The notes below the pieces were generated by a model. The model worked only from the letters and a program-made list of their open reading frames with translations, did not search any database and was not told the DNA's origin. A stretch of DNA of 64,000 bases, taken from NCBI GenBank assembly GCA_905178155.1, contig CAJINV010000020.1, positions 372,001 to 436,000 of the forward strand. The letters run 5' to 3'. The DNA is from Amoebophrya sp. A120. Its lineage: Eukaryota > Protista > Dinoflagellata. The translations under genes and the position numbers were made by a program. How positions within the stretch are numbered: the stretch's first letter is position 1; every line of letters begins with the position of its first letter. Shown here in pieces: positions 8,449-64,000 of the stretch.

Positions 8449-11211
8449 GTGTACGACTCGGATTCGGACAATCGGGAAGACGATGCAGATTTCCGGACGG
8501 GAAACGTCGGGTCTGGAGCGCATCAGACCGCCAATGTGGCACGCATGCCCCAACAAACTCAGGTGGAGGCGTTGCCATCCGGGAAAAAGGTGAAACAGGA
8601 TTCCACGGCGGAAACATCGGAAACGGAAGAAGGAAGTACTTTTTTTACAACCGCGTGGTCTTCTATTCATCTTGCTGGCACATTCATTAAGCATGACTAT
8701 TTCCGAAGAAGTAGTAGAAATGACTATCATTCAAAAAGCTTTTTGCGTAACTTGAAATAGAAGCGAGCACACTATTTCAGACTTGAAGTTGAATAGTGAG
8801 AAAGAGAAATCAAATCGAACGTACGAGGAGCGTTGTATTCCTTAGACGCAAGAAGAGAAGCTCCTACAAATTCTTGCACACAACAGGTACAGACGACGAG
8901 GATGAGTCCTGGGATGATGACGAGGAATATATTCACGGGTAAAAAAGTCACCCCCCCCCGCCCATATTAAATTTCCACACGATAATTAATCCGATTTGAT
9001 TCTCGCTGTGGTTTTTCTATCTTCTTACTTGAGTCACCATCGCCAGCAGAATCACACCGGTAGTAGCCTGCTTGACGAGAAAGGATACATAGTGAGTAAC
9101 TACTTCTTGTTCGAAAAGTAGTTCTTTTGGTCTTAGCGGGGGCGTGGCTTTCAACCCAGGATACTAGATTACGACAAACGCAGTAGAAGAGGCGGAGGCG
9201 ACGATAGTTTTGATGTCAGCGAGGGCTACAGCGACGATGGCTACAGTGGAAGCGGCGCGAGTAAAAGTGACGACGGCGACGGCTACAGCGACGACGATGG
9301 TTTATCAAATGTAAAAATGTCTGGGTCTGGAAGAATGCAACTTGTCATGCTAAATCTGAAGCATACAAAAAGCTGTGTTGCATGATTACCAAAGTCGTCC
9401 AGTTTTGGCCAAGTCGGGAGGGAGTTTCTCATGCAGGATAGGCATGAGAGAGAGTGCACAGAATCTGTCATGTTAGGTCCTGCATTACAGACCTCATGGG
9501 TCATGGAAAAGCTGCATGACAAATCGCGCACTCTTCCAGACCCAGACATTTTTGCATTTGATATGGTTACACCGATGACGACAGTGGCGCCGCCAGCAAC
9601 AGCGACAGCGCGACCTCCGAAACGCCGCCCAGTAAGACGAGCAGCAAGACAAGCAAGAGGAAGAAGGCTAGTGCCAGCGCCAGTGCGACGTCCTTCCTGC
9701 AAGAACATCAACTGCAGAAGAAACGAATCGCCAGGAAGAAACAAAAGCAGAAGAAAAAAGCAGCAGCTGCGAAGAAGTTTTACAAGAAGTCCGGCACGCT
9801 AAAATCGGGGAAAATGCAGTCTTTCTTACAACTGCACGAGGAAAGCGAGGACAGTGGTGTACTAGGTCCTGCGCTGCTGGGAGGACAAGCAGGACAACAA
9901 GAACCCGAGATGCTGGACGACCCGCGGCCGACTGCCTTTATTTCCTCCTCAAGAGCAGCTGCACCGTCGAGTTGGAGAAGCAAAAAGAGAAATAAGCTGG
10001 TCGCAGATCCTGGTCTCGAAGACTCGACGTCGTCCGCCTTGGCAGCAGGAAGTAGAACAGCCGTCCAACGAGGGCCTTCAGCGGGCGCCGGGGGAAATAT
10101 GAAAACTCCCAAGGAGGTCATCATGTTGTTGTTGTCCGGAAGTATTGAAACGACTGGAAGAACTACCAGCGGAGATGAAAGTACCAACACAGCCGGGACA
10201 AGTGTGTTGCAGCAGGGCGAGAAGATTCATTTCCCTTCAACATCATTCTTGCCAACATCTTCGTCTCCCACCACCGGTAAGGGTGATGACATGGGTGCAT
10301 CTACTACTGCTGCATCACTAGAACAAGCGGGAGGAGCTGCCACTGAGGAAACAAGAAGCCAGGATGGAGTAGAAGCCGCTTCCTCCCGCACTACAGTGTT
10401 TTTACAACCCGTCGACAGCCGGATTGGGGAAAATGCGGGGAATAGCACGACATTAACGATCTTTCCCTCTTCATCGCTAGAAATTGTACCCGGTAGTAGA
10501 ACAAGCACAACCCCGTCCACATTTCTCGAAGAACAATCCGCCTCTTCTCTTGACTCTGGGTCAAAATCCCAGGAGGATTGGCGAGGAGCAAAAGAAGCCT
10601 CGTCCACTTTAACACCAACATCTTTGGGAGAAGTTACAGGCGAAAGAAGGCTGCACGAGACTGATCGAAAAGATGAAAATGTGGAAGAGCAACAGGGATC
10701 TGCTCCAAATCGATCACTAGAACAAGCGATAGAAACCGAGAACGATGAGCAGCAGCCTGACCTGGAGCCCCCTCTAGTAAAAACGGGGTCGTTGACAACT
10801 GCAGCAGCCCCCTCCTCAAGTTCTTCTTTTCTCCAAGAGCAACAAACTGCACGACTTGAGGGCGGCACGGGGGGCAGCAGAGGAAGCATGGGAGCAGATG
10901 ATGACAATCTAAATCCTCTGCTGAACTACGACGAAGCAACACCTGGTCAAGCGGAGTCAACGGATCATGTCGAGCAGCGAGCAGCTGTCATCACGGGTGA
11001 AGACGTCCTTCCACCTTCTAGCGGAACAAGGCCAAAAACTGCTCTGCGGGGCGCTGGAAGGGTGAGATGGCCGCAAGTAGCAGCAGTGCAAGGCGGAACA
11101 ACGACAGCTGCGGTGGGCACAGCAGAAGGAGGTAGCTCGGCTGCTGCCGGAATGACTGAAACGCCAGTTGTGCGGAAAACCAATTTGCGGGGCGGGATGA
11201 AAAACTTGTAG
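8449..11211 (+). CDS. Large acidic, Ser/Thr-rich low-complexity protein with repeated S/T-F-L-Q/E motifs; 5' end unresolved
   Basis: Exons join in frame: SETEEGS|TDDEDESWDDDEEY|YDKRS...DDGY|TDDDS...KMQSFLQ (ORF 9814-11211). Confidence 0.6.
8930..9163. mobile_element. Degenerate introner
   Basis: TIR tattcacgggtaaaaaagtcacccccc vs reverse complement tatcctgggttgaaagccacgccccc; eroded TSD GAATA/CTAGA; removing element plus 5 nt keeps the frame. Confidence 0.7.
9303..9563. mobile_element. Introner family A (A2), 261 bp
   Basis: TIR tatcaaatgtaaaaatgtctgggtctggaaga; TSD TGGTT. Confidence 0.95.
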
Positions 11212-12214
11212 GTCGCTGTTTTTCCTCCAGCTGCGTTGAATTTCAAGAAAAGTTTCAAAGAAATTAAACAGAACATTTAATGTACCTGATGCAGATTTAC
11301 ACTACGTTTGTTGATGCTCACAATGAATCTTGATTTTACTTGCTAACAAATTCAGTCAAAGTCGCAATTCCAAATTACACTAGATTGCGCAAAGGTACAA
11401 CTAGGTCTTGCCGATTGCATTGTACAAAAATCTCAGTTTCTTGTCAATCTTGTAATGTACACCATTGCCAAAAAAAATCGTATCCGTATACTCTTTTCTT
11501 GTATGATGTACCAAAATTGTATCGGAAATTCAACTTAAGTTTTCTGGCAACAGGAAAGATATGCTTAACATAACAAGGAAAGCACCAGCAGGGGTGCCGG
11601 CTTTGCTTTTTTATTGCTTTCCTTGGAAAAGGTTTTAAATCGTTCGCGTTCGTATTATAGCAGAGGAGAGATTTTTTCCCTTCGTGTCGGCTGTCGGACA
11701 ACATTCGTAATCGTCATCGTTTTGCTCGGAGCAGAGAGTTGATGTCTTCGGATAAAAGAAGAGCGAGACACGATTGAAGTCGTGATTTCTAGCTGTTGTT
11801 TTCAAGATAGAACGGTCGTGCTCTTTTCTTTTTGATCGTTCTTCACTCCGCCTTCAGGTCAACTCCAAATCGAAGATTCTTTTCTTTTGTGGCGCAACCG
11901 CAACAAAGTACTGGCGCAGCAGCCACCTTCACATAAGTTAGTAGGTGCCTCTAACCTGGCTTGCATATTATTCGGCGTATTAGCTGTCGTGAGGTGCATC
12001 TGTACTGCAGATTGATTTTATCTGTAGTTCATTCATTGGCTACAAGAAGCCTGGTGTACTTCCGCCTCTTTTCCTATTGCACAAATGCGCAAGATGAAGA
12101 CGGATGATGTACTAGAGCCTGTCCTTCTTTGAAGTTGTGGGAGCACGACCGCGGGGGAACGCTGTTAAGCCGCATTTTAAGGAAAAACTACCGTAGAAAC
12201 CTACCACGTGCAAG

Positions 12215-15200
12215 ATGTCGGACGACGACAGTGAGGGGGGCGGTGATAACATTTTCGCTGCTGCAGGGGATGTTGACCAAGGAGAAAAACCTGCACCGAA
12301 AGCCGTCCCGCAAGCCCGGGGGAGCATGAGCGCTCTGCTTGCGAAGTTCAACCCGTTAAGCAGCAGCAGTGGTGCAACTAAACCAGGCTCTCGAGGAGGA
12401 GCTGCGACATCAGCTGCAAGTGGAAACAATCATGCAAACAGCAGTTTTTCATCAACATCTGAGCAGCAGACGCAGGCAGCAGCAAGTCAAGAAGATAAAG
12501 AGTCCTCCGCGGGAGCTGCATCGAAAGCTTTTTCCACCTCAACCTCCGCAGCTCCGACCCACCTCCCGGCGAACTTCCAGCAGCAGTTGGAGAATTCCAA
12601 GGTCTGCTTTTGCCACAACACGCTGGAGGCCAACGTGGAGCGCGCGAAGCCCTGGGACGCGCAGACGCCGAGCGTGCTCATTGGCCACTTCTTCTTCACC
12701 TCGGCTTTCGACAGCGGGAACGGGGGGCGCATCATGCGCGTGCCCAAGCCCAAGCCGCTGTCCATGGGGTACGAACCCGTTTCGGAGGACCCGGTGTGTT
12801 ACGACCCCTGGGAATACCACGTGTGGGTCTCGCCCGACTGTGCGAACACGATTCACCAGAGCACCTGTCGGACGTGGTTCTACTTCCGGGTCACCTCGGC
12901 GGAAACAAGCTACGTGAGCGAAAAGCCCGAAGAGGAAGAAAGCGGGGGAGGACCGGCGGGCAGCGCTACTTCGGAGGGGCAGGGGAACGGAAAGAAACTG
13001 CCGCGTAATCAAGATGTAGTTTTGATGTTCATCATGGTCCGCGTGGAAGCTGTTTTTGCATCTCATGTAAAGAGTAGCGGAGGTGACAGAGCACCACGAG
13101 CTAGGACTCGAGAAACAGAAAATGCGTACGTTTTTTCGACAAACAAACCCAGGTATCCACCCCATGCACTTGGTAGTGCGCGGGATGCAGAATCAGTCGA
13201 GGCTCTACAAGGAAAACTACTCGGTCTGGATGCGGTTTGTGGACGGGCCGTGGCACCGTGTGCCAAACATGACGGGTCCGAATCCGCAGGCGGCAACTCC
13301 CCGAGCATCTGGTGTGGACCACAAACTCGGCCAGAAAATTGGGCGCATCGGAACGGCGAGCGGCGGGTCGCGGGCGTATACTTAGGTTTTTCTGGAAGGT
13401 CTCTACTAACTTCGCTGTAGTTACTCCGAACAGCCCCGAAGCTGGAGTCTTGGCTGATGCGCGTTAGCGATTCTTTTGAATCCGAGTTCGAGTCTTCTTG
13501 CATTGGCAGTCGTATTGTTTCAGCTTTTTGGTAAATTATCTTCGTAAAGCACAAATCTCATTTTTCAGTTCCACCGCCAGCGGGGAGGCGAAGACCGAGG
13601 CGCTGATGCGGCAGACCATGCAGCACCAGATCGCGCAGCAGCAGCAGGTGGAAGCGGTGTGGCACGACCCGCACCAGGGCGGGACCGGGTTGAGTTTGCA
13701 CTTCGTCGCGCCGATACCGCTGGACAGCACACCCGTGGAGTTCGCGTTCTGCGTGCCCTTTTCCCACACGGACATGGAAACTTACCTAGCGAGAATCGAG
13801 CGCCAGTTTTTAGCGTACGACAAAGCTCTCTTTGACAGAAATGCTGCGGAGGCGTGCGGCATCACGAGTGGAGGCGCAGGAGCAGCCGGAAGCAAGGAAC
13901 AAGCAGGTGGATCTTCTTCGTTCAGTAATGCTGCAGCGGCAGCCGACCAGCAGCGCCCGAAGACAACTTCCTCGGTTAGTTTTTGATTGAAGCTTTCGTT
14001 TGTTTCATCCTGTTTCTGATGAACCACTGCGGAGCCTTGTTTCTTTGTAGATCTGATGAATTTGACAGAAGTAGTGTCAATTACAATTTGAAATCAACTA
14101 TCCCGCGCAGCAACGAATCATAGAAGGCACCAAAATAAAGAACCGTTTTATATCAGGTTCCAGTAGGAAGCGCGACCGGCAACATCAAGCAAGACAACAG
14201 CCAGTCCGAAGAAAGCCAGCGGGACCGATCGTTTTCCTCCGACGGGGTCCCGGCGAGCATCCTTTCCTCTAGCTCGAAATACGCAAAAACGGGAGGGAAC
14301 TTCCGTCTCAGCGCTGCAAGCAACCCCATGAACTGGGTGCCGACGAGGCTCTTGCCCAGTTCCGCAAGCAATTCAGCCTCGAGTTCGGAAGCAGGTGCTG
14401 GGAAAAATGGTGACAGCGCGGAGAACAGTACTACTTCATCGTCTTCATCGAGGCCGTCGAGTTCTTCAAGCGTGCAACAATTATCCTCGAGCAACGTCTC
14501 CTCGTCCTCAGCCGCCGTATATGGCAGTGCCGCTGGTGGCAACGGCTTCGCGAATGGTGACACGAATCAGAATCCTTTGATAACCGGTAACAGCCTGTCC
14601 AGCAGCTCCTCAACCTCGCGGTCGTCTTCGAGAAACCGGAGCGGGTCTGCTACTTTTTCGGCCTTTTCCGTCCCCCCAGTTCCCTTCAATTTCCGGACGA
14701 TCTCAGGGCTGAACAACTTCGAATCCATCACGAAACTCGATCATCTCGACAGCGAGGAAAGGCTGTTTTTCTTCCCGTATGCATTACAAATATGTCTGGG
14801 TCTGGAAGAATGCAAGACCTGTCATGCACATTTTGCATGACCCATGATGTCTGTGATGCATGCCCTAGCATCACAGACTTTTTGAGGGCTTTCTGATGCG
14901 TAAAGTGCATGACAAAGGCCCTCTCCGCGTAGCACAGACTCGACTGCTCTTACTGGTCATGCAATACAAATTTTTTTGGAATCCAAATGCAGCATCACAA
15001 GTTGCCATCTTCCAGACCCAGACATGTTTGCATTTGTTGATATCCCGACGAAACAACACCACCGCGGCATGCCGATGCCGCCGAAGGGGCAGAACGTGTT
15101 TCTGCGGGTGGAGAAATTTTGCAAGAGCTTGCAGGGGAGAGACCTGTATTTGATGACGATCACGGACAAGCGGCTGTTTCAATTCGACCCGCACGAGGCA

Positions 15201-17915
15201 AAGAATCTCGGGAAATTGAACGAAGCGCTGAAACTCCGCCCGGCGTGCTTTTTATCCGCAAGAGTGCACCCCGGCGAGACGCCGGGCCAATTTGCGTGGC
15301 TGGGGATGATCCAATTCCTCCTCTCCGACGACGAACGAGCCGAAGCTTTACGGAGAGCCTTCGTGTTCCGCTGCATCCCGATTTTGAATCCCGATGGGGT
15401 CGCCTTAGGCCACTACCGCATGAACAGCCGCGGGCAGAACCTGAACCGGTTCTACTCGAAATCCTCCGCGAGCGAGCACGAGGGCGTGCACCACGCCATG
15501 CGGTTTCTGACCGAGACCTTGCGGAAAAATTTGTTTTTTTACCTAGATTTCCACGCACACGCAACTAGGCGCGGGATTTTTCTCTTCGGAAACAACGTCA
15601 CCGGGAAATCTCTACAGCTCGGGCAGGACCTGGTCGTGGAGCAAGCGTGGAACGTGACGTACAGCCAAATGGCCGCTTTGAATTCGCCGTATTTCGAGAC
15701 CGAAGGGTGCAATTTTCAAATCAAAAACCAACTCGGCGTGCCGGGAGGGAGTGGTGGGAGCGGCGGTGGAAATAATTCGAAAAATGTTCTGTCCTCGACT
15801 ACTGCTTCCAGTACCGGCGCCAGTACGCCGACGGGGGGTAGTGCTAGTGGTTCAACCGCCAATCAGAATAACGTCGGTTCGGAATTGGGAAAGGACGGAA
15901 CGGGCAGGGTCGCCGTGCACAACCACTGCAATGTGGTGCATTCCTACACGCTTGAGTGTAACTACAACAGCATCAATATCTAAGAAAAAAACTGTGTTTT
16001 TGTAGGCGTCTTGGAGTGATAGCATGACAAATATGTTCTGCATGACATCACAGAAAGCCTGTCATGCACAGCTAGCACGTGAAAACAGATTTGGAAGGAG
16101 GACGTCGTGGCTGTCTGGCATGACAAGTGTAAACTGTTTTGCATTTTTTGCATCACAGACTTTCACCTACACTCATAGGTTTTCTTTTGCATAATCAACC
16201 CGGCCTCCTCCTCTATCAAAACTCGGTGGAACGGGGGCAACTGGGATCCGGACTTCGGCCCGGTCACCTTTTTCTACGATGTGAACAGCTGGGTGCAGGT
16301 GGGGGAGGCGCTCGCGATTTCTCTACTCGACATGTACGGGCACAACTGCCGGAGTCGCTTGTTGAATCTGCGGCAAAATTCTCTGTCCGGCTACTTCGCG
16401 GACCGGCATCAGGTTTTGCGGCGCGAACTCGCTACGTTAACCAACTCTCATCCGTCGCAGGCGGCCATGGCAGCGGCAAGTCGAAAAAACAGTGTGGCGA
16501 ACGAAAGGAAGAACAATAATGCGAAGGACAATATTAAAGACGACTGGAACAGTAGCACTGCAAGCCCAACAAAGAACGGAGGTGCTGGCCAGGAGAAGGA
16601 CTCCCAAGACAAAGCGAAGACAAAAACAAAAACAAGTATCAAAGTCGCGCCCAGCGCTGCGGTCAGTATTGAGCACGTCGGTAACCACCTCTACAAGGAG
16701 CCGTGGCAGCACGGCAATAGAAACAGTTCCAATTCATCTTCCAATTCGGGTGCTGACGTCAGCACCACCGCCAGTAGTACTAACCAGAGCCGACTGAGCA
16801 GCGCGGCGAGCAGCGCCTCTTCTAGTAGTGCGAGTAGCACAAGTCAAGCGGGAGATAGGGACAACAACAGTCATCAAGCGGGCTCAGCATCAGGTTCTGC
16901 AGCGAACAATAAGGGCGGATCTTCAGCGCAACCATCTTCCATCTACCTAATGTACAACCAAAATGGCTCCGAAAACAGTACCGCGGCCCCCTCGGACACA
17001 GAGACCGCGATGTCCCAGACCGACGGGGAGGAGTACCGATGGGAGGATCTCGTGCACAAACAAGAGATCGTGCCCAAGCACATCGGGACCATGAATTTAG
17101 CTGACCTGTTGAAGCGCGAACAAGCCTGTGCCGAGAAGTGCTGCTTGTGGAAGCAGAGTAGTACTGGTGGATCAACATCATCGTCGAAGAAGGCTGCGAG
17201 CAAAATAAACGCAGCCTCGTTGCCGAAGGGATGTTTTAACGTGTTGAAGGAGCACGATAGCGTCACCAGAGTGTTGCCCGAAACACTGCAGAGGATACTT
17301 GCAAAAATCGCAGCGGAGCAGCAGAATTTGGTGGGGAGTGGTGGTGGTTCAGCATCTTCAACCGCGGGAGCAGGAGGTGGTTTGGCGGGACAGAACGCAG
17401 CAGCTCCGGGAGCCGGATTGATACAGGGTAGTAGTTCATCCAAAAGCCCACGAACAGCGACAGTGGGAGATGCCAAAGAAGCCGCAAAGATGAGCAGGCA
17501 ACCGTTTGTCACCCTTCGTGTGTCCTCCGCCTCTTCTGCTGCTGCTGCGGTGCCAGATATTACGGCGAACAAAGACGTGACCACCTCTGCAGTCGCGATA
17601 CCGCTGGTCGTCGGGGGAAAAAGTACGCAGCAGGACAATTCGTCATCGTCCGACAACTCCTACTCGACGAACCAAAAACAGCTATCCTCCACCAACCCAG
17701 AGCAACAAACCATTGTCGCGGTAACGACAAAGAAGCCCGCCGCAGGGAAGGCGAAAGCGAAACTCGCGAAGGCAGTGCGCGCGGTTTCCAGGGCGCGTAG
17801 CTTGAGCAAAAATGCGGGCAGCAAAAAGAAACCGTCAAAGGAAAAAGACGACCACGGGCCGCAGCTAAATGCGTCAGGGAATAAGGGGTCGAAGAATGGC
17901 GGGGGTGACGGGTGA
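12215..17915 (+). CDS. AGBL5: Cytosolic carboxypeptidase 5-like tubulin deglutamylase (M14D, Nna1/CCP family); exons approx. 12215-13004, 13153-13375, 13569-13974, 14157-14777, 15048-15976, 16199-17915
   Basis: FTSAFDSGN, TWFYFRV, FAFCVPFS, SARVHPGETP, NPDGVALGHYR, NLNR, DFHAHA, YTLECNYN, QVGEALAISLLD; three GT-AG introns and two introners. Confidence 0.88.
14778..15042. mobile_element. Introner family A (A1), 265 bp
   Basis: atgtctgggtctggaaga TIR; TSD TCCCG; removal gives RLFFFP-TKQHHRG. Confidence 0.95.
15977..16193. mobile_element. Introner family C, 217 bp
   Basis: tatctaagaaaaaaactgtg ... cataggttttcttttgcata; TSD ATCAA; removal gives CNYNSIN-PASS. Confidence 0.9.
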
Positions 17916-18893
17916 TGAAATTTTGAAATAATTCGGGTAAAAACCGATATGGACGACGATATTCTAGTGTACTAATTGGATCGATGAATTTTTTTTTCCG
18001 AGTTCTTTCTGCGGCAACGGTATCTAATGGCACTCGTTCTTCACATGAAGAACCCATTCATTGTATAATACATGAAAAAGATACCGGTAGCATGCACAAT
18101 TCGGAGCTCTCTTTGTTCTTAGAACTTGTTTGAGACCTTAGCCATTAAAACCTAAACCAGATTTAATCACCACACTAGCGCTCCTACTGCTGGTGCGCGT
18201 CAAAACCTTGAAAACCTATAAATTTCTTGCTTGATGATGATGTTTCTATTATACCACGACGGTACTCGGGTTCTTCTTCGATTTGCTACCAGACTTCTTC
18301 GGAGTTGCCTTCGAGAATTTAGGCTCTATGTATGAAAATCTCATGCGCGGTGTCAGAATATTCTTTTATGCCGTGTATGCTCTTCCACCCTGGTATGCAT
18401 CAAACGACGTTGTCCAAGAACGAGTACACCGCTGAACTTTTTCAAATTTTCGTCTTGTTTGCGACTTGCAGAATCATGCGCAAGTCCAAGGAAAAACAAA
18501 AACAAGGTAAAATCGCGGACAGTTGTCTTGAACTCCTTAGTTTCAAGAATTGCGACCTTATTTTCAGGTTCGGAGTCGTGTGTGAGAATATGAACTTTAT
18601 TCTGCGCGACCGTCGTTGATCTTTTACTTTTAGTTTTACTGAGTGACAAAGACGCACACGCACTAAGTTATTGTGCTTCGGCTCACGAGTGCGAAAAATA
18701 AAGGAAGTCTTCACCGGAGTTGTCTTTGAGTTGTGCGGAAAGGAAGACGGGAGGGGTGAGAGCATTTATTTTGTGCAAAAAGAGACAATCTCGTCGTGGT
18801 CGTCAGAAAAAAAATGCGGATGTTTTTTATTTGTGATGGTTCTTCATCTTCTAGAGAGTAGAGACTCACTTTTATCGTGCTTTTCTTACAAAA

Positions 18894-21800
18894 ATGCGTA
18901 GGCCCGTCTTGGAGGAGCTCACGTCGTTTGTAGGTACAGTAGGTACAACCACTTTGGAAAAAATCCAAACCATGTCTACTTCCCCTGGAGCGGCCAACGC
19001 CGCTGTGGAGCAGCGTTTCTTCGACATGCTGGATGCAGATGTGAAACGGCTCGGCTCCACAACGGAAACGGAAGAGCCGGAGCGGACAAGCTTTGTAAAA
19101 GAGGCGGCTACAACAACTTCTGCAAAGGACCACGATATTTTCACCTCTAGTAGTTCACCTGCCTCCCTCCCCCTTTCCGACCACTCCGCGTCCCAGCTGG
19201 TGACGCTGATTACGAAGAAGACCGCCGAGGTTGAGGAAGCGGCGCAGTCGTGGACCCGGAGGCTGATGGCGCACCGTAGCACGGGGATGGCGAACCAGGG
19301 CGGGACTAACAGTATTAGTACTGCCGGTGTAAGTCCGGCGCTGCACCAGCTGGCCCTGTCCTCTGGGCTGTTCCACAGTGAGGGAGATGGTAACAACTAC
19401 CCGGAAGATGACGAGGGATTGTATCACCCTCGCGCTGCGAGAGAAAAATTCGGGAACACGGCGACCGGTGCGACAAGTGGCACAACTACTGGTTCCTCTT
19501 CTTTGACAACTACGACCATGAATCCTGGTATTTCATCCGTCCGCCCCGCCCCGGCCGCGGACGACATCCTCGACGCGCCGCCTCCGTATGGATTGCAAAA
19601 ATGTCTTTGTCGGGAAGATTGCAGCTTCTCATGCTGAATCCGAATCATGCAAAAGTCTGTGTTGCATGAGTGCCAAAAGCTGTCCACTTTCGACCAAGTT
19701 GGGACGGAGTTTCTCATGCAGGATAGGCATGAAAGAGACATCACAGACTCTGTCATGCTAGGTCCCGCATTCCAGACCTCAAGGGTCATGGAAAACCTGC
19801 ATGACAAGTTCACACTCTTCCAGACCTAGACATTTTTGCATTTCATACCCTGTTGAGCAAGCTGATGACCTCCGCGTCCAGCAGCGTGTCTGCGCGGGCG
19901 AGCCGGTTCAGCAGTGGTTCTTACCAGGGCGGTCAGGAGGTGGGGACTAGCGGCTCTTCTGCAATCAATTCTGCGGTTGTACTAGCTAGTGGGGCGAACA
20001 ATGCTAATCAAAAACAAGAGCCAAAAATCTCCTGGATGACCAGACTTGTTCCATCATCAGCATCTTCCGCGGATCTACAAAGTAAATCCTCGCCGAACAA
20101 AGCTGCGATATTGTTTCCCAGTTCGACCTCTTCCTCCCCATCGAAGTTCCCGCAGCACTTTCGCAACCCCGCACACGAGGCGTATAACCACGCTCTGGAG
20201 TTCTATCCAGGAGCTGCTCCCGGCGGCGAGAGGAATACTAAGTCCCAATCGGGCGAAGACTTTTCCACGACCTGCGCCAGCTCGTCCAAGGGGAGTTCCT
20301 CGAGTAATTTCCGGAACACGATTCTCGATCAGCAAAATTTGCTGCTCACAGGAACGACATCGAACACAGTTCTGGGAGGAAATAACTATCGCGAGGAGGA
20401 CCAAGCTGCAGCTGGTGGGCTTCTTCACTACAATCAGGAAAAATCGCTTGCGACGTTTTACAATCCGAAGATCTTCGACTACCAGAAAGAGGAGGAACTT
20501 TACGCGCAGAATCTGCAACTACTACAGTCGAGGTCCAGCACTGCAAGTTCCACCGGAGGGGGAGCCGGTAATATGAATAACGTCTTCGCTGGAGCAGGAA
20601 CATCAAGCGGTGGTCGTCCAAAGTCCAGCTTTGGCACGACGACAGTCGCGACGGTTTTACCCGGTTCTAGCGACCAAGAAGATATACTGGGCGTTTCCAT
20701 GTCCGCAGGGACAACTTCTGCTGCAACGAAGGCTGGCAGTATTGGAACAATCACAGCATCAAATCTCTTGATGTCCCCGTCTGCCTCGAAAGCCGTTCTT
20801 GCAGGGGGCACGTCGAGTAGCTCTTCCTCTTTCCGTGATTATCGGCGAAAAAGTCCCTTTCTCGGGCGGGCACGGGAAGCTGCACGGGCGGAAGCGTTGA
20901 GGGCGGCCGCGGTTGCGGAGCAGGCGGAAATTGTGTCCTTGCGAGATGAGCAAAGTGGCACGGTTTTTTCACGCGCAGAGGCCGCACGGGGATCGAAAAG
21001 TATACTTTGACGGGTTTTCGTTTTCTTTTGGGCGTCGAAGATTCATATGTTCTTGTGCCTGTTGCATGGTAAGTAAATAGCCGGTCGTTTTTGCTACATG
21101 CTTGCTTGCTTGTACGGAGTTCCTACTCGTGAAGACACCACTCTTACTCATTTATTCCTGTGATTCCTATCAACAGACGCCACGAGATCCTCTGCCTCCT
21201 CATCGCACCAACTCGGAGATGGACATCAACAGTCTCCAGCGGGTGGAGGTCTCTACTGGTCAACCAAGCGCACCTCGTCTCCTTCCAAAAACCTGCATTT
21301 TGCGAGCCTGAACAGCGACCGGTATTTGTCCAATATGTACAGCACCAGCCCGAGCAAGAAGTATGACGGGGACATTCTAGGTTACAGCAAGAACCACCTG
21401 AATGTCATGCGCCGGGAAAACGGCGCGGACATTTTGGAATACGCAGCGAGGACATCACGTTATGGGATATCGCAAGAGCTACCGGCTGCAGGAGACGACT
21501 TCGCCGAGGCAGAGGCCCAACGACTTCTTTTTCTTGCGAAAATGCAAGGGGCGGAAGGAGTTTCTCCGAACGGAAATCAAAAGCAACGCACACCGCTGTA
21601 CCAAATTCCTCCATTGCCGCCACCAGCGCAGCTGTCTTCTCATGGTGCCTCCGCGTCCTCGAAGAAGCAGAACAACTTTCCCAAGCCTGAGTGGTCTCCG
21701 GAAATTGATAAGTTTTTGCAGTCCACCTCTGTTTCGAGCAGCAGGTCTGGTGCAGGAGAACAGCAGCAGCTGCAGCTCCGCTTGAAACAAGCACAGGAAA

Positions 21801-24584: not shown

Positions 24585-24679
24585 TTTCTCGCGGACTTGT
24601 GTTCTTGACTAAGCGCGGATGTGTGCTCATTTTTCCCGAGTGTATTCTAGTGGTATTGTTCGTTGACCTTCAGCCTCGG

Positions 24680-52296: not shown

Positions 52297-55200
52297 ATGG
52301 ACTACTACACGACAAGAACTGCGGATCAGCATGATCTCTGGGCACCACCAGAAGACGCACCGTATTGGCGCGTCTCCCGAGACTGCACCGAATGCAGTCG
52401 CACTTTGGCATGCTACGAGGCTTCGCCAAGTTTCAGCAGCGACGGGGCCGACAACATCGCGCGAAGTCACCCCTTGCACGAAAGGGACCGCGGAAGAATG
52501 CACGGGGACAGCTTTCGCCCGATTAATTTTGACCAATACAAGAAGCTCACTGTGCAGACGCTGCTGTGCGAATTCAAACCTCCTGCAGGAGCAAAAGCAT
52601 CTTCCGGGTCGTCCTCGTCCTCCTCCTCTTCTTTCTCCGGAGTTGTAGATCCTCCTGCGAAACAAGAAGCCGGTCGAAGCGGGATAAAGAAAACGACTCC
52701 CAGCAGCACCATAAAACCAGCGACAGCAGGCCCGGAGGAGCCCACGCGAGGACCACCGGAGGAAGAGAGACCAAGTAGACGGAACAAGCTGATCATTCCG
52801 GAAAAACGCGATTTCGTTGAAGTTGGCACGTCTTACTACGACACGCTCGCGCAGTGCTGCTACCCGGAGCAGATGGAGCGTGACGGGAGTAGCAATTGCT
52901 ACTATTTGGAGTCCTGCTACCAGCTCAAGTACAGCAATTGCGAGAAGTGGCTCGGTTTACCCACAGCCACCGGCATCAGCATCGACGCCATTCCGCAAAA
53001 CGTGGAGATGCTGCCCCGAACCTCGAACAATTTCACGAAAATCGCGAAGCCGGTAGCCGGAAGAGCGATGGACGTGGCGGAGCGGGCGCGCGTGGACTTT
53101 CTGCGAAAGGACCACTTGCGGGACAAGGTCTTGCAGTTCTGGGACAGCAAGGGGTGGCTGGTCCCGTGGGACATCTGCTACAACCAGGCCGCTCAGAATA
53201 TGGCGTTCTCAATCGTTACATTCTCAACTGTTACATCGATTTGTAATGCAAGAACGGCAAAACTAAAAGGGGTGACCTTGCGCGTATTGCATGACAGATT
53301 CGGCGCAGATTCTCAGCCTGTGTGGCTCTTCGAGAATTTGTCATGCGAAGCAGCTTGATCGTGTCAATTCTGATTGTAATTTTGCATGACAAATCACGTA
53401 ACAGTTGTGAATGTAACATTTGAGAACGCCATACAGAAAAATCGCGTTTGGGAGCAGGATTTTACGGATCCTTGCTTTCTCGACTGGCTTTACCGCCAGG
53501 AGAACCCAACTCTGGCGGACTTTTTGCCACACAAGAAGAAGAATTCGTGCGCGGATGAAAATAGTACCACGACCGGAGGTAATGGTAACAGTAACTCCAG
53601 CTCCAGGGTAACGCGGGCGGATAGCACGACAGCGAGCACGACCGCGGAAGGTGGGAGCTCCACGAGGCAAAGTGTGGACAATTTGATAGAGGATGTCGAG
53701 GCGGTGGCCGCTGGACGAGGAGGGCCACAGCAGCCAGAAACAGAATGGGGTACAGAAAGATTTTTGTGTTTGTGATTTACTGTGTGTCAGGGCGATCATG
53801 CAGTAGTTTCTCGCGGCCCCTGATTTGTTTCCTCATTGCGCGTTCACGATTTAGTTTTGCAGCCCTGGTTCTTGTGCAGGACTTCTGATCATGATGAACT
53901 ACTGCCTTCTACATTTGCGAAGCCACGGAACAACGAAACATAGGTGTAGAAGAAGGCGACGATCACGATACGCAGGCGAAGATGAACATCACCACCTCCG
54001 GCGCCAAAGTAGAAGAACCTCGAGATCTTCATGAAGGCCCCGCCTCGCTGCTGCACGATGTGCCGAAAGAAGTCGCGGAGCAGAAGGTAGCAGAGTGGCG
54101 AGAAAAGGACGAAGCGGAGAAAAATAGCACCCCGTTGCCGGACAACCACGTCTACCTCTACGGGCTTTTGCCTGAAAAAATGCACGAGATGCGCAAAGCG
54201 GAGGAGACGGCAACACCTTGCGCCGAGCACGGAGTGCCCAACTGCAAAAGATGCTCCTTCGTTGGGGCCCGCACCTGCGCGACGTCGTCGATCAATGAGC
54301 CCACCAAGTACCTGCTGGAACTGCTTTCCTACAACAACATGCTGCACCTGCTGAAGCGGCAAACGGTGGAAACCGAGGCTCTGTCCTCGATTTTACGGAG
54401 GCACAAAGTGCTCATGGTCGACACGCTGCTACGCAATTGCGAAAAAAGACCAGTGTCGAGGACGCAGTCGCAACAAGGTCTGCGTGATAATGTGATGTGA
54501 AGACTTGTTTTTGCCTGCTTAAGACATCTGTTGAGCAGACATGTAAGTATTGATTTGATTTCGGGCTGCAGCTCTTCTCTTTATCCGACAAATAAGCGTA
54601 TTTGTGTTCTTGCCCATACATAGTCAACTGCTCCTGCAAAACGAAAACTCGGCGACTGCCACCTTTGCTGGACTGGTTTATTTTTCAACCACTTGCATAA
54701 GCCAAGTTGGATTTGGAAGGTGCGGATGGTGAAATTCTGCGGGATTTGATGTGGAACCATTTTCAGAAGTTTGGCCTGCTCTCCCTGCCGCGCTTGATCA
54801 TTTTCGAGGCGAACGCCACCAACTGGGCCGAGGCGCAGATGATTATCCTGAGTAAAAACGTACCCACACCATAGTCAAGATGGGGAATCGGCTAGACAAG
54901 TCCACAAGTTTTGGCTGTTTTGCATGACAAATTTGCATTCGTAGTGTAGTGCGGTTTGAGCTAGCTCAGCAGCATCACAGATCTAGCATACCATGCTGAT
55001 TGGAGCATGACAAATTGCAAAACACGGCTAGAAAATGCTTCTCATGGGGCTCCGCATGAGAAACATTTTCAGCATGCAGATTTGCATTACAACTCTGGTG
55101 TGGGTACGTTTTTACTCAGGATAATGATGTTGCAGTCCCTGGAGTCCTGGTTTGGGTACAAAACCCAAGACTTCTTCTACCAGGGAATGCGCAAATGCCA

Positions 55201-55927
55201 CCCGGCTAGTATCCTGAGTAAAAACGTACCCACACCAGAGTTGTCATGCGACTTTGCCATGACAGGAACATTTGTGATGCGCAACCCCATGACAGGCATT
55301 TTCAATCGTGTTTGGGAATTTGTAATGCTGTAAACAGGAGCAGCAGATCGATTTGTGATGCGGCTTTCCTTGCTAACTTGCACTACCTTACGGACTGAAA
55401 CTTGTCATGCGTGACTCACAAAACTCCTAGGCTTGTGTTGCAAAATCCCCATCCTGACTCTGGTGTGGGTACGTTTTTACTCAGGATAGCTAGCGCGGGC
55501 CAGGTCTCGGACATGAAGGTGGAGCTACCGGAGGAGGTGGAGAGGGTGAAGCAGAAACTGTGGGAGGAGGTCATCTATCACATGGAAAAAATGTCTGGGT
55601 CTGGAAGAATGCAACTTGTGATGCTGCATTTGGATTCCAAAAGAATTTGTGTTGCGTGAGTACCTAAGGAAAGGCAATTTTTGCTACGCTGAGAAGGCAT
55701 TTGTCATGCGGAATACGCATCAAGAAGCCCTCAAAAAATCTGTATTGCTAGGGGATGCATCACAGACATCATGGCTCATGCAAGACGTGCGTGACAAGTG
55801 TCAGAATCTTCCAGACCCAGACATTCTTACAGTTGATATCATCCAGGTGTTTCACACGCTGGAGGAGCAAGAGCAGCGGCAGATGAATCGAGCGAAGGAA
55901 CAGGAAAAAAGGAAAAATTTTTTATGA
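52297..55927 (+). CDS. FkbM-like SAM-dependent methyltransferase, expanded; 5 introners and a GT-AG intron
   Basis: DFVEVGTSYYDTL, GISIDAIP, VDTL-KLDLEGADGEIL, LIIFEAN. Confidence 0.6.
53199..53433. mobile_element. Introner family H, 235 bp
   Basis: Long TIR tatggcgttctcaatcgttacattctcaactgttac; TSD CAGAA. Confidence 0.93.
54430..54699. mobile_element. Degenerate introner
   Basis: tacgcaattgcgaaaaaagaccagt vs reverse complement tatgcaagtggttgaaaaataaaccagt; TSD eroded (GCTGC/AGCCA); removal of element plus 5 nt keeps the frame. Confidence 0.65.
54844..55123. mobile_element. Introner family G, 280 bp
   Basis: Family G TIR; TSD ATGAT. Confidence 0.95.
55210..55488. mobile_element. Introner family G, 279 bp, opposite orientation to 54844
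   Basis: Perfect TIR of about 32 bp; TSD GCTAG. Confidence 0.95.
55576..55838. mobile_element. Introner family A (A1, reverse orientation)
   Basis: Family A TIR; TSD TCATC. Confidence 0.95.
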
Positions 55928-56098
55928 CATAAAAAATTGATGACTGCTCTTTGATGTTCTCGTTTTCGTCTAACACGAATGAATGTACACACTATTGAAG
56001 AAGATTCCCAAAACCACCCTATTCAGAAAGGTTTTGGCCAAGAAGAACATACACTGTAAATGTACACAGTATAATGATGTTGTTGTTGAAATGAACAA

Positions 56099-56307
56099 TA
56101 TCCAAGAAAAAAACTGTGTAAGTGTAACTTTCTTTGAGGAACAGCATCACAAATTTGCTCTGCATGACAGAGAAAATCTGTCGTGCGTGGCTTGTAAGGG
56201 AAAATACACATGAAAAGAGGGCCGCATGGTTGTCCGGCATGACAGGTGTATCTCTGCTGCATGTTCTGCAACACAAATTTACACTTACACAGTTTTTTTC
56301 TTGCATA
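56099..56307. mobile_element. Family C element in probable 3'UTR or intergenic DNA
   Basis: TIR tatccaagaaaaaaactgtgtaagtgtaa; TSD AACAA. Confidence 0.93.
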
Positions 56308-58387: not shown

Positions 58388-61030
58388 ATGTCTTGTTCGT
58401 CGCTCCTCCCTCGTTTTTTCCCCACGACAGCATCTTCAGTAGCCCTGCTTATCTCGTGGGTGCTCCTCCTCGTCCACACTGCGACTCCATCCGAGGCCAA
58501 AAGTTCAAGCCAGGCGGAACCGGTTTCGATCGCGCCCGCCGCCGGGGATCCGGGCGGCTTCATGGACGAAGACGGCAATCACCAGGGGTTTCTGGACGAC
58601 GAGACTGGCGAAGACGATGACGATCTCGACGGTAGCTTCTCGTTGGACGAAATGGAGCTCGCGGCGGACGAGCTGCTGGCGCAGTCCGTTCGGTCCGGCG
58701 CGATCGACGTGTCTGCCAGTGCGAAATTGCTTGACAACGGCGTGCAGCAGGTCGCCAGCAGTGAGGAGTATCTCCAACAATTTTCCCTAGCGGGCAGTGA
58801 TACCATCGGAGGATCAACACAAGCTGCACGTGTACAACAACTCGGGCAAAGCCAGGCCGGGCTGACGGTGAAGACCGCGCCGGGCGGGGAGCTCGTGGAC
58901 CAGGGGGTGACCGCGGCTTCCAGTATGGAGATGAAGAACGGGGTATTGGTGTACAAGGAGGATGAGAGTAGTACTCCGGAAGGAGCAGGAGATAGAGCGG
59001 CAGCAGACCTTGTTGAGCGGGAGCAGACGAAATTGGAGCAACTGACGCAGGAATTATCCGAAACGCAGAAAAGGCACAATCAGTTCAAGGACCAGCTGCG
59101 GGAGACCGCGAAAAAGGAGCAGACCAAGAAGATGAACAAACAAAAAAACAAAAAGACGCTTTCCGGGTTTCTGACCAAGTGGAAGAATTTCGCCACCGAC
59201 TGGTTTCAGCCCGGGTACTGCCGCGAGGCCAAGCGTTCCACGAACTACCACACTGCGGAGAACTGCTATTCGCCCTCGCGCTGCTCTATCCAAGAAAAAC
59301 GCTATGTGAGTGTAAATCTGTCATGTAGAAAATGCAAATTGTCATGCTGGATATGCGTCATAGAAGGCCACTTTCATACCTGTTTTCACGTGCTAGTCGC
59401 GCATGACAGGTTTTCCTTGTAATGTAAAAACGAATATAGTGATGCTGCTTTTCCGTACAAAGTTAATACACATGCTCACAGTTTTTTTCTTGGATATGCT
59501 CGGACCCCCGGATCCGGCAAGTCTGCCTCACGCAGGGCTTCGTGCAGATATCAGATGCAAAAATTTCTGGGTCTAGAACAAAGCAACTTGTCATGCTAAA
59601 TGTGAATCAGGCAAAAAACTGTGTTGCATGATTGGCAAAAGTTGTGCACTCTTGATGTAAGTAATCGAGAGGCAGTTTCTCATGCAGAATAGGCATTAGA
59701 ATTAGAAAGGTCTCGTCGCAGAATCTGTCATGCTATGTCCTACATGCCAGACCTCATGGGCCATGGAAAACCTGCATGACAAATCTGGCGATCTTCCAGA
59801 CCCAGGCACTTTTGCAATCCATAGCAGATGACCGACAACTACGTCCTGTTCAAGTCCGGGAACGGGTGCCGGGCGGCGCCCGTCACCGAGGTGGATGTAT
59901 CCCCGAGAAAAACGCGGGCAGGGCATATTTGTAAATGCAAAAACAAATACACAGAAAAATTTGTCATGGGTGGTCCCATAGCGTGCTGCTTCGGGTATGC
60001 AGTGCAGATTTTTTTTGCGTATTTATTTTTGCAATACAAATATGCCCTGCCAGCTTTTTTCTGTGTGATAGGATGCGAAAACCGGGCGGGTGATCCGGAA
60101 GAACCAGAACGCCTGCGTGCCGCTGCGGCACTACTGCGCCATGCAGTGGGACGGCATTTCCTGCGGGGAACTGGAGGGCTGCGAGTGGGTCGTCACGGGG
60201 CGAGTATCAAATGTAAAAATGTCTGGGTTTGGAAGAATGCAACTTGTCATGCTAAATCTGAAGCATGCAAAAATCTGTGTTGCATGATTACCAAAAGTCG
60301 TCCAGTTTTGACCAAGTCGCGAGGGAGTTTCTCATGCAGGCTAGGCATGAGAGAGATCGCACAGAATCTGTCATGCTAGGTCCTGCATTCCAGACCAGAC
60401 CTCATGGGTCATGGAAAAGCTGCGTGACAAGTCGCGCATTCTTCCAGACCCAGACATTTTTACATTTGATAGCGAGGGGAGGAAAGCATAAGCAACCAGG
60501 CAGGTGGGTCCTCGTCGACGGAGGTGGGAGCAGCCGCTGTGGAGGATGTTGATCCTAGTGTTGCTCCTGTTGAGAAAAAAAACGAAAACCCACCCCGTCT
60601 TTCCTGGCGAAATTACGAGACAACAATCCCGGGCGTTGCCTACCTGCTGCCGGACCTGCCCTGCGACCCGCTGCCCACCGCTCGTCGCGCGCGGCGGGAG
60701 CCGTGTTTCTTAAAGGAGCCGAAGGCGGTCGACAAAAAGAGTTGGTGGTACTGGTTCCTCACCAGCCGGGTGACGAAACTCAGCACGTCCGCACAGTGGC
60801 GCTACGAGAGGCTGACGCGCCGCGATTTGTCCTACAATGTCCCGCGGAACGACTGCGGCAGGTGCAAGGAGGTCTCGACCCACTGCTACGAGAATTCCCA
60901 GTGTTGCAGCAATAAGTGTGCCGTCGGTCCGGGATTGTATAGCTTCACGCACAAAAAAAGATGCCAGCCGGTGGCGGGGGAGCAAGGATATCCCTCTGTG
61001 AGTGAAGGGGGCATTACCGTGTCGGTGTAA
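58388..61030 (+). CDS. Secreted protein: signal peptide, acidic/coiled-coil region, Cys-rich C-terminus; 4 introners
   Basis: VALLISWVLLLVHTA; joins RCS-DPR, VQ-MTD, VD-AKT, GR-GEE; C-terminal Cx6Cx5CCx3Cx14C. Confidence 0.7.
59287..59496. mobile_element. Introner family C, 210 bp
   Basis: tatccaagaaaaa TIR; TSD TGCTC. Confidence 0.93.
59549..59823. mobile_element. Introner family A (A2), 275 bp
   Basis: Family A TIR; TSD GCAGA. Confidence 0.93.
59898..60070. mobile_element. Introner family D, 173 bp
   Basis: tatccccgagaaaaa / ttttttctgtgtgata; TSD GGATG. Confidence 0.92.
60205..60471. mobile_element. Introner family A (A2), 267 bp
   Basis: Perfect TIR of about 36 bp; TSD GCGAG. Confidence 0.95.
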
Positions 61031-62131: not shown

Positions 62132-64000
62132 ATGGCGATGACCACGAAGCAACACAGCCGAAATGCGGCACTGAGGCAAGAGGTAACGCTATCTGCGGAG
62201 GAGGAAAAAAGGGCCAAGGAACTGTACTTTGTTTTCATGTTGATCGCAGTCCGTCATGTGCTTGATGTTTGTGTTTACCCTTCGAACGTAATGAATACGA
62301 GCACTGGGATATTGTTATCCCCCCATTGTTCCAATGGATTTGGTATTATCCGAAATGAAATACTCACTAGATTCGGCGTGTACGACTACGATAAATCAGA
62401 CAGCGTATCACCTGCAAGTGAGCGTCAGGGAATCGGAAGAACTTTTCCTTTAAAAATTTGTCCTCTTGCTACTTGTTTTACTATGCATGGGCATGGGAAA
62501 TGAGTTCGTGCCATGGACTCATTTTCTTTGTTTAAGCTAAGCTTTGTGTGCGTATTCTGTTCTTCCCATGGAACGGTGACGCCTATTTGCATTGCATACA
62601 CTATCTCACCGGATGAGATGCGCGATCTTCTCACCGAGTTGGGCTTCAACATCGCAGACGAGTCCATCACACTCGTAATATCACAATACGGTACATCTTT
62701 TGTTGGACATTTCAGCTGAGGACTTTTTTGCTTTTCAAGAACTCGGAACAAATACCAGTATTGCAGCGCAATTTCACCAGCCAAGTGTGGACATCAGAGT
62801 AGAAACTCAGTTTTCTAGAACGATGTTGATGCTAGTGCTGTTTTGTCTATAGCGATGTCAAAGATCTTGATCTTCACTGACCGACAACAGCTGCGGATCC
62901 TAACAAAGTGACTTTTGCGGAGTTCAAGGGAATATACGTGGAATTCCTCGCCCAAATGCCGTCCGCGCTGAGGAAAAAGAACATGGCCGGAGCCTGCCGA
63001 CCATGCGTAAAAATACAATTAATTGGCTACCACGCTTTTTGTTTGCGAACGTTCTTGTATGGATCAACGCCAGGCTTTTACCGGTCGTGAAACTAGCGAT
63101 TTTTTTTTGCCATGATTCGGAGGGTTTGATGGCATCTCATCTGTTTTTGAAAAATCTATCAGCATCAAGACGTATACTTCACGGAAGCGAGTTACCGATC
63201 CGCGTTATCAAATTGATGCAAATGTGTCAATATCTACTTGGCTAGGGTAAAAAAAAAACCTCACTTAGTGGCTGCAGAATCAAAAACAGGCCGTGAAGCA
63301 GCTGCACCCATGCTAAGGCGCTGCATTGTGACATCATTGCATATTTATGTAATTTATTAGTATCTTCTGCATGTAGTTAGATGCTTCCCTAAAAAGAGCA
63401 GAAGATCTTCGAAGTAGTAGTGGTGCAACTTGTTCGGTGGAGAGCACGAGTATCTTGCATTTTTCCCGAGGCATCAAGTCAGAAACGACACTTGCAGAAC
63501 AAGTCCATAACTCTTCAAGGCGTACGACTTCGATGCAAGCGGCACGCTGGAACGATCGGAACTGAGTGCGTTGCTGTTCGATCTCGGTATTGATTGACGT
63601 TTATCCCATCAGTTTTGATGCAGCATATCGTAATGTTTTTGTTTATGTTTTTGAATACTATCCAGAGAACCGAAGCGTGACTACCTAAATCGCAAAAGGT
63701 GTACACATCCACTTTTTCCGAATTATATACCAGGTATGCCAGACGTTTACGGAGACAATTACAGCACGCTAATGGACGAGGCTTTCTCTGTGGTGGACTG
63801 GGATCACTCAGAATCGCTGGACTTCCAATATAACCCGCTCAGGTGTTACAATCTCAAACGTTACAATAGAACATAGAAATCTGTGATGCAAGAGTGCATG
63901 ATCTAGCCAACTCTCATAGGATTGTGCATGACAAGTTCCGGAGCCCCAAACATCACTACAATCTGGCGAAATTTGTATTGCAAAAGGTGGAACGCTGTGC
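62132..64000 (+). CDS. Multi-EF-hand calcium-binding protein, runs off the window end
   Basis: FGVYDYDKSD(S)ISPDEMRDLL, FKAYDFDASGTLERSELSALL, FSVVDWDHSESLDF. Confidence 0.75.
62406..62598. mobile_element. Degenerate introner inside an EF-hand loop
   Basis: tatcacctgcaagtgagcgtca vs reverse complement tatgcaatgcaaataggcgtca; eroded TSD CAGCG/CACTA. Confidence 0.7.
63829..64000. mobile_element. Probable introner, truncated by the window end
   Basis: Begins with TAT directly after coding SLDFQ; contains gtgatgc and gcatgacaa motifs. Confidence 0.55.

What the first reader, a model, noticed from the sequence alone, without database searches (positions are those of the whole stretch)
8929..62602. 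Eroded TSDs point to one splice register: N|TAT...ATA-NNNN|
With perfect TSDs the junction is ambiguous, but five old copies have diverged TSDs. Taking 4 nt from the left copy and 1 nt from the right gives the best protein in the informative cases: 54430 gives VDTL-K-LDLEG (FkbM-like LKxDxEG), 62406 gives the EF loop DYDKSDSISPDE with a GT donor, and 8930 gives EEYY with a newly arisen TAG acceptor. 19587 (GT donor) and 44627 are compatible, and 39767 becomes perfect GT-AG in this register. The element's TA would thus supply the +2U/+3A of a donor, leaving +1 and the acceptor dinucleotide free. This would suggest a relaxed spliceosome rather than a wholly separate machinery (inference).
Basis: inference. 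Interest (0 to 1): 0.85.

Follow-up and report, generated by a model that had tools for sequence, protein, structure and literature searches.

The report
Hairpin transposon introns with fixed cuts
Small hairpin-shaped transposons that pepper the genes of what is likely the marine parasite Amoebophrya are removed from its RNA without the usual GT-AG signals; at the one site where RNA shows the cut it lies one base before the hairpin, which likely holds for all copies and would let the normal splicing machine read the transposon's first bases as its own start signal.

Summary
The elements are real: 32 in the window, 5-nt TSD, TAT...ATA ends, 26 with perfect and 6 with eroded TSDs. They fit the published Amoebophrya A120 introners (PMC7789003), whose cut position the paper calls variable or unknown. 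RNA contigs remove element plus one TSD, and at 54429 the upstream exon ends exactly at 54428, which only the proposed 4+1 register gives (one sample; 3' side inferred from frame). Ordinary GT-AG introns here start GTAT (10 of 21; 8 of 20 in a second assembly; background 4-5%), which the element's TAT copies only in this register. Two elements are perfect GT-AG in the 3+2 register against one in 4+1, and an indirect coding test went against (14 of 38). The other four junctions were not seen in RNA. The published dinucleotide table is no support: aligner sliding reproduces it. Verdict: one register likely (0.7), relaxed U2 spliceosome given that register plausible (0.65), untested. The scan noted a similar signal-free hairpin intron in another dinoflagellate (e1-7693921).

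The parts
54429..54703 (+). Old introner, predicted intron CT..CC (TIR body 54430-54699; TSD copies 0 of 5 alike); 5' cut shown by RNA, 3' cut inferred from frame
   Evidence: RNA contigs X1 rec 4 and X3 rec 10 end the exon at 54428 and continue elsewhere; only k=4 gives that end; open model; DNA-like run X5 spans the element
62405..62602 (+). Old introner in a small EF-hand-like gene, predicted intron GT..CT (TIR body 62406-62598)
   Evidence: weak EF-hand protein hits (E 0.06-1.6); junction not seen in RNA
8929..9167 (+). Old introner, predicted intron AT..AG (TIR body 8930-9163)
   Evidence: junction not seen in RNA
19586..19851 (+). Introner with eroded TSD, predicted intron GT..CT (TIR body 19587-19847)
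   Evidence: junction not seen in RNA
44626..44814 (+). Introner with eroded TSD, predicted intron AT..CC (TIR body 44627-44810); k=2 to 5 give the same mRNA
32613..32798 (+).
39766..40032 (+). Perfect-TSD introner that is GT-AG at k=4 (junction ambiguous)
33275..33603 (+). Perfect-TSD introner that is GT-AG at k=3, TT-GG at k=4
45304..45565 (+). Perfect-TSD introner that is GT-AG at k=3, TT-GG at k=4
59287..60471 (+). Four perfect-TSD introners in one gene (59287-59496, 59549-59823, 59898-60070, 60205-60471), each removed with one TSD copy
   Evidence: RNA contigs hold 245 nt between 59281 and 60472 in both runs; predicted exon sum 245
942..56307 (+). The other 19 perfect-TSD introners: 942, 6611, 9303, 14778, 15977, 23610, 29762, 37358, 37649, 44985, 45624, 45866, 47395, 50764, 53199, 54844, 55210, 55576, 56099 (TIR starts)
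   Evidence: RNA pieces begin at 47681 and 51042 as expected after removal
49025..49262 (+). Canonical GT-AG intron (GTACGT..AAACAG), control that X1 and X3 are spliced RNA
   Evidence: joint 49022>49261 in X1 and X3, not in X5
53750..53943 (+). Canonical GT-AG intron (GTACAG donor)
   Evidence: RNA piece starts at 53943, equal to its leftmost placement

Best explanation
These are MITE-like transposons with 5-nt target duplications and TAT...ATA inverted ends that are removed from the RNA together with one target copy; the 5' cut is one base before the element at the one site RNA resolves and likely at all, and the normal U2-type spliceosome is likely the machine, reading the element's U-A-U as positions +2 to +4 of this organism's GUAU donor while tolerating any base at +1 and at the acceptor. 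Shown: element anatomy, insertion in both orientations with no site preference, net removal of element plus 5 nt, the 5' cut at 54428|54429, the GTAT donor consensus of predicted canonical introns. Inferred: the same register everywhere; a 3' cut 4 nt past the final ATA (forced by frame once the 5' cut is fixed); the terminal stem brings the ends together and stands in for G+1, AG and perhaps U1. Untested: lariat chemistry, branch point, snRNA pairing. Register 0.7; spliceosome given register about 0.65.
For: RNA exon end 54428 in two runs, and 7 of 7 other checkable piece ends equal the computed leftmost placement, so the tool's ends are exact. Net removal: 245 = 245 nt over four elements; 78 of 99 frame-callable elements keep frame with one TSD. 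Canonical donors predicted with no donor model beyond GT: GTAT 10 of 21 in the window (background 4.6%, P 1e-8) and 8 of 20 in loci of a second assembly (4.0%, P 5e-7); only k=4 lays TAT on +2..+4. Both orientations in the largest family, 26 and 22, as a symmetric TAT end predicts. The 54430 copy is cut there although its region folds no better than shuffles (z -0.55; a young copy z -9.4) and its first three bases are predicted unpaired. No G.U-over-A.C bias in stems (127 against 138). Hand-picked end mutations: sense-5' ends vary mostly at +4, sense-3' ends mostly in the TA (P 0.10; 0.035 with three window cases). PMC7789003 reports a near-complete spliceosome in A120 with snRNP27 undetected; PMC10581693 ties its loss to +4U donors in yeasts.
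Against: One resolved junction, 5' side only, two runs of one sample, contigs not reads. Coding-score test on 38 TSD mismatches: 14 agree with k=4, the worst of six registers (best k=0, 22); P 0.002 if the intron copy always carried the change, 0.027 at two thirds, 0.07 under chance. Two window elements are GT-AG at k=3, one at k=4. No drift to G+1 or AG: at position 5, left G in 2 and right G in 3 of 8 mismatches. L136 has an AAT sense-5' end with a perfect TSD. The automatic tally of end changes shows no asymmetry at the first base (8 and 8 of 209). PMC7789003 Fig. 3 legend calls the cut variable. Canonical introns keep GT-AG and show no such hairpin (stem score 3 or less in 20 of 21), which fits two machines as well as one.
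Confidence: 0.47

Rival explanations
1. Same fixed register, but a separate hairpin-measuring nuclease/ligase (or a second, specialised spliceosome) cuts 1 nt before and 4 nt after the stem, as suggested for euglenid nonconventional introns; the GTAT match is coincidence or a relic.
For: No base preference at +1, -2, -1 or for the -1/+1 pair (chi-square P 0.67); all 32 window copies keep some terminal pairing (cofold -8 to -42 kcal/mol); canonical introns form a separate hairpin-free class; U1 snRNA not detected in A25 or A120 (PMC7789003), but found in the GT-AG species (PMC12005148).
Against: TAT equals +2..+4 of the canonical donor in exactly the register RNA shows; no G.U bias in stems; the 54430 cut is precise though its outermost three pairs are predicted open.
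Confidence: 0.23
2. The cut slides within the TSD, each locus using whichever register looks most like GT-AG; perfect TSDs hide this and 54428 is one draw.
For: PMC7789003 Fig. 3 and Fig. S23 legends (variable; IR 1-5 nt from the sites); GT-AG at k=3 in 33275 and 45304, AG at k=2 in 44627 and 54430; coding test favours no register; Polarella introners use several registers (bioRxiv 2020.10.14.339549).
Against: At 54430 the RNA ignores the k=2 option that would give an AG acceptor and uses CT..CC. Simulated aligner sliding inside a perfect TSD reproduces the published class table (7 of top 9, Spearman 0.8), so the published variability may be an alignment effect. No enrichment of GT or AG anywhere in 143 TSDs.
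Confidence: 0.25
3. The junctions are artefacts: reverse-transcriptase jumps across hairpins between direct repeats, or excision at DNA level.
For: Hairpin plus direct repeat is the classic setting for such jumps (recalled). X1 and X3 are RNA by the tool's guess only.
Against: Removal restores long open frames in every gene modelled (4 of 4); the 54428 end has no repeat to jump on (0 of 5); run X5 spans the 54430 and 62406 elements intact and lacks the canonical joint that X1 and X3 show.
Confidence: 0.05

Closest known systems
Introner elements / non-canonical introns of Amoebophrya sp. A120 (Farhat et al. 2021, PMC7789003)
   Same: IR starting TAT, seven variable bases, then AAA; 3-5 nt direct repeats; about 240 nt; repeated families; non-GT-AG ends. 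Almost certainly the same elements.
   Different: The text and legends I read give no single cut register and call it variable or unknown; the fixed N|TAT...ATA-NNNN| rule and its match to a GTAT canonical donor are not stated there. Figures 3, S19 and S23 could not be seen and may show part of it.
TIR/TSD introners of Aureococcus, Micromonas, Symbiodinium, Polarella (PMC9860276; bioRxiv 2020.10.14.339549)
   Same: Non-autonomous DNA transposons spliced with one TSD copy; Polarella class 12 (5-nt TSD) builds a donor from the last TSD base plus the first element base.
   Different: Those carry or co-opt G(T/C/A) and AG and so need a fitting target site; here no target-site filter is seen at either end.
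Non-canonical introns of the tunicate Fritillaria borealis (PMC11282704 review; PMC13326754)
   Same: Transposon-derived, non-GT-AG, attributed to an altered U2 spliceosome (duplicated U2AF, changed m6A on U1 and U6).
   Different: Fritillaria ends have their own consensus (AG-AC, AG-AT) and U1 is present; here +1 and the acceptor look free.
Euglenid nonconventional introns (PMC11282704 review)
   Same: Terminal stem close to both cuts, longer overhang at the 3' side, TSD-like repeats, no GT-AG.
   Different: Stem motif CAG at +4..6 and CTG at -8..-6, pyrimidine|purine junctions, excised as full-length circles; no match to the canonical donor reported in what I read.

Membership tests
Amoebophrya A120 introner elements (PMC7789003) | Terminal inverted repeats starting TAT, seven variable bases, three or more A | tested here: met
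   TAT in 177 of 180 sense-5' ends (TA was required by the search), A at positions 11-13 in 173-178 of 180
Amoebophrya A120 introner elements (PMC7789003) | Direct repeats of 3-5 nt at the borders | tested here: met
   205 of 252 with perfect 5-nt TSD
Amoebophrya A120 introner elements (PMC7789003) | Repeated families, spliced out of RNA with non-canonical ends | tested here: met
   42 clusters among 205 copies, largest 64; removal in RNA contigs; GT-AG possible in any register for only 3 of 32 window copies
Amoebophrya A120 introner elements (PMC7789003) | Window comes from that organism | not testable with these tools
   No genome is held; assignment rests on the motif match alone
U2-type spliceosomal intron | GT/GC donor and AG acceptor | tested here: not met
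   k=4 gives GT-AG in 1 of 32 (window) and 6 of 180 (loci); the RNA-resolved donor is CT
U2-type spliceosomal intron | Match to the organism's donor consensus at +2..+4 | tested here: met
   GTAT 10 of 21 and 8 of 20 predicted canonical donors; holds for the elements only if k=4
U2-type spliceosomal intron | Branch point, lariat, snRNP dependence | not testable with these tools
   No snRNA gene in the window (0 Rfam hits); no read-level RNA of this strain
Euglenid-type nonconventional intron | CAG/CTG stem at +4..6 and -8..-6; pyrimidine|purine junctions | tested here: not met
   Stem starts TAT at +2 and ends ATA at -5; no junction base preference
Euglenid-type nonconventional intron | Excision as full-length circles | not testable with these tools
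   needs RNase R or circle RT-PCR
MITE (non-autonomous TIR DNA transposon) | Short, TIRs, fixed-length TSD, many copies, both orientations | tested here: met
MITE (non-autonomous TIR DNA transposon) | Autonomous partner with transposase and the same ends | not tested
   no genome held; PMC7789003 found no transposase in A120, PMC12130899 assigns diverse TIR transposons (passages)

The most novel reading that the evidence does not exclude
This parasite's major spliceosome needs only U-A-(U) at +2..+4 and counts four bases past a terminal hairpin to find the acceptor, with no requirement for G+1 or the AG, so any insertion of this transposon, at any site and in either orientation, is an instant intron; the 'signal-free, variable' splice sites in the literature are one rule blurred by aligners.
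Probability: 0.4. Interest if true: 0.8.

Novelty: new variant of a known kind. Interest (0 to 1): 0.55.

Why it matters
How Amoebophrya removes tens of thousands of non-GT-AG introns has been open since 2021 and was framed as having no splice signature. A single register turns it into testable statements: which bases are read (+2U, +3A, +4U), which are free (+1, -2, -1), where to look for a branch point, and which snRNA or protein changes to expect. It would also correct gene models, explain why insertions need no target filter, and show a spliceosome doing exon ligation without the terminal G and AG contacts thought near-universal (recalled knowledge).

Tried and rejected
Table S4 of PMC7789003 (all nine top A120 classes are NT-NN) first looked like strong support. 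Rejected: the gene models used BLAT, and simulated sliding to the best partial GT..AG match reproduces the 13 listed classes (sum 26.9% against 23.8%, 7 of top 9) better than true k=4 (12.0%, 3 of 9). The A25 classes (all TT-NN, IR starting TTA) would also put U at +2 and A at +3, but the same bias may apply; kept as a lead only. Protein searches for cDNA-derived or orthologous junction residues found nothing usable: no hits, three distant multi-repeat proteins (not fetched). The FkbM label got no Pfam or NCBIfam hit on separate exons; it rests on a recalled motif. GC-to-AT polarity of mismatches: 17 for, 14 against k=4, inconclusive. A model-free GTAT test in the loci was too noisy (15 of 196 against 10 of 237, P 0.15). 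Run X9 (raw RNA reads, same species label) laid 149 reads, 144 at 90-95% identity, nearly all on one element: uninformative. No RNA holder is on record as RNA. No whole genome or longer record was available. No Rfam or tRNA hits.
Full report
What is there. The window is eukaryotic, 50.9% GC. A TIR scan and a profile built from it find 32 complete elements of 157-975 nt with TAT...ATA ends between 5-nt direct repeats; 26 have perfect and 6 eroded repeats. A pattern scan of metagenome contigs returned 144 loci (256 kb) of one public assembly, JACKZZ01, with the same families (up to 96.8% identity) and no shared flanks. In loci plus window, 205 of 252 elements found without using the TSD have a perfect 5-nt one. 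The end motif matches the introners described for Amoebophrya A120 (PMC7789003 section 11); no genome is held to confirm the organism.

Are they spliced? Runs X1 and X3 (one sample, contigs, RNA by guess) show a GT-AG joint at 49022>49261 that run X5 lacks, and X5 has even depth and spans elements, so X1 and X3 behave as RNA and X5 as DNA. Both RNA runs hold 245 nt between 59281 and 60472; removing four elements with one TSD each predicts 245. In 78 of 99 elements with a callable frame on both sides, keeping one TSD keeps frame; 21 gave another phase. Four gene models spliced this way are open.

The register. Let k be the number of TSD bases taken from the left copy. With a perfect TSD all k give one mRNA. 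39767 is GT-AG at k=4, but 33275 and 45304 are GT-AG at k=3. The real test is RNA. In both runs the exon piece ends at 54428 and the contig goes on. The tool places joints leftmost, and 7 of 7 other checkable piece ends equal the computed position, so the end is exact; k=0 to 5 predict 54424 to 54429, and only k=4 gives 54428. The intron therefore starts C-T-A-C, one base before the TIR. Its 3' end was not displayed; frame and motif spacing point to 54703 (CC), passing over the AG that k=2 would offer. The other four junctions were not seen in RNA.

Why this register. A gene-structure program with no donor model beyond GT predicted 38 introns in the window; the 21 of 100-230 nt were kept (17 dropped by length, mostly long joins across genes). 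Ten start GTAT, 16 GTA, one has +5G; background for GTAT is 4.6%. In the second assembly 8 of 20 start GTAT, background 4.0% (filtered by length, GC and absence of element motifs). These introns are predictions; two canonical ones are RNA-backed and both start GTAC. Only k=4 places the element's TAT on +2..+4. PMC7789003 lists snRNP27 as undetected in both strains, and PMC10581693 links its loss to +4U donors in yeasts; the link here is inference.

What is free. Elements were oriented by a coding model trained on the window (25 of 142 same-locus pairs disagree, so roughly one call in ten is wrong). Among 163 perfect TSDs, G at position 5 is 46, not enriched, AG at 3-4 is 18 against 15, 14, 12, and the -1/+1 pair is unbiased. 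Both orientations occur, 26 and 22. So insertions are kept without G+1 or AG.

Results against. A coding-score comparison of left and right bases at 38 mismatches in 31 elements agrees with k=4 only 14 times, the lowest of six registers; no register beats chance (best 22). Per-site power is 0.61, giving P 0.002 to 0.07 by assumption. There is no drift to G+1 or AG with erosion. Of 33 rows with a non-TAT end I kept 13 clean single substitutions by eye: sense-5' ends 2 in the TA and 5 at +4, sense-3' ends 5 and 1 (P 0.10; 0.035 adding three window cases); one 5' case makes a GC donor (L002), one makes AA (L136), which breaks the +2U rule. The unfiltered tally shows 8 and 8 at the first base. This is weak.

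The published table. Table S4's top A120 classes are all NT-NN, as k=4 predicts and leftmost or rightmost placement does not. But the models used BLAT, and sliding to the best partial GT..AG match inside a perfect TSD reproduces the table better than true k=4 (my own simple model of sliding). So the table is no support, and the paper's 'variable' sites are no strong refutation either.

Mechanism. Best guess: transposition duplicates five bases; the transcript folds a terminal stem (young copy z -9.4); the U2-type spliceosome takes N-U-A-U as a donor and ligates four bases past the stem, removing element plus one TSD. How the 3' site is measured is unknown: the stem end, or a branch point at a fixed place in the inverted repeat, whose reverse strand also supplies a U-run about 15-19 nt upstream, are candidates (inference). 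The rival, a hairpin-measuring enzyme as proposed for euglenids, predicts a fixed register too; against it stand the GTAT coincidence, no G.U bias (127 against 138) and the precise cut at the decayed 54430 copy. Sliding registers remain possible because only one junction is resolved.

Literature seen. PMC7789003: outline, passages, sections 10, 11, 12, 16, 25, supplement passages and part 3 of 5 of its file; figures not held, and Fig. 3, S19 and S23 may bear on novelty. [quoted passage not shown] PMC11282704: passages and section 6. Passages only: PMC9860276, PMC12130899, PMC11453091, PMC10581693, PMC12005148, PMC13326754, bioRxiv 2020.10.14.339549. Searches listed no paper whose title or read text states a fixed register for these introns; subscription papers and unread supplements were not covered. 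An earlier scan note (e1-7693921) describes a signal-free hairpin intron in Prorocentrum cordatum; I did not check it.

Verdict. Known elements, a likely new and testable rule about them. Register 0.7, relaxed spliceosome overall 0.47, interest 0.55.

Noticed in passing
window 32614-32794: Sixth eroded-TSD copy (CCATG/CCCGG, starts TAG); lies in an unbroken ORF (30663-33530) and element plus TSD is a multiple of 3, so it could be spliced or read through.
   Followed up: partly
window 44811-44815 and 54700-54704: Two unrelated old copies have the same right 5-mer AGCCA, with AG directly after the final ATA, though their left copies differ.
   Followed up: partly
window 6611-7285: Introner enlarged by about 355 nt between two copies of a 25-nt repeat (6875, 7230); a further candidate old element follows at 7297-7546.
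   Followed up: partly
window 23610-24584 and 24700-26100: 975-nt element with 61-nt TIRs and perfect TSD between genes, followed by a GC-rich stretch (70.8% at 25-26 kb).
   Followed up: no
window 56099-56307: Introner that lies after the predicted stop codon (about 55925), so probably in a 3' UTR.
   Followed up: partly
window 50308-51451: Gene with a weak cwf18 splicing-factor hit (E 0.016, below cut-off) that itself carries an introner at 50764.
   Followed up: no
window 42629-43639: ORF with a Hint module hit (E 5e-11).
   Followed up: no
window 12215-17915, 26220-27701, 28295-30241, 56908-58050: Cytosolic carboxypeptidase (M14), EamA transporter, RING/TMEM151-like and ICMT methyltransferase genes by Pfam.
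   Followed up: no
window 60205-60291: Run X9 raw RNA reads carry an 87-nt piece like this element (90-95% alike) with other sequence on both sides (66 and 117 loose ends): perhaps an element fragment kept in a transcript of another strain.
   Followed up: no
L045 1829-2108; L104 74-328: Copies whose flanking repeat is offset from the TIR by 2-3 extra bases at one end; useful natural tests of how the cut is measured.
   Followed up: no
L002 1359-1507; L136 301-562: Perfect-TSD copies with a changed sense-5' first base: one gives a GC donor at k=4, the other AA.
   Followed up: partly
predicted canonical introns, window and loci: Donors mostly lack +5G (1 of 21; 3 of 20), suggesting altered or relaxed U6/U1 pairing.
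   Followed up: partly
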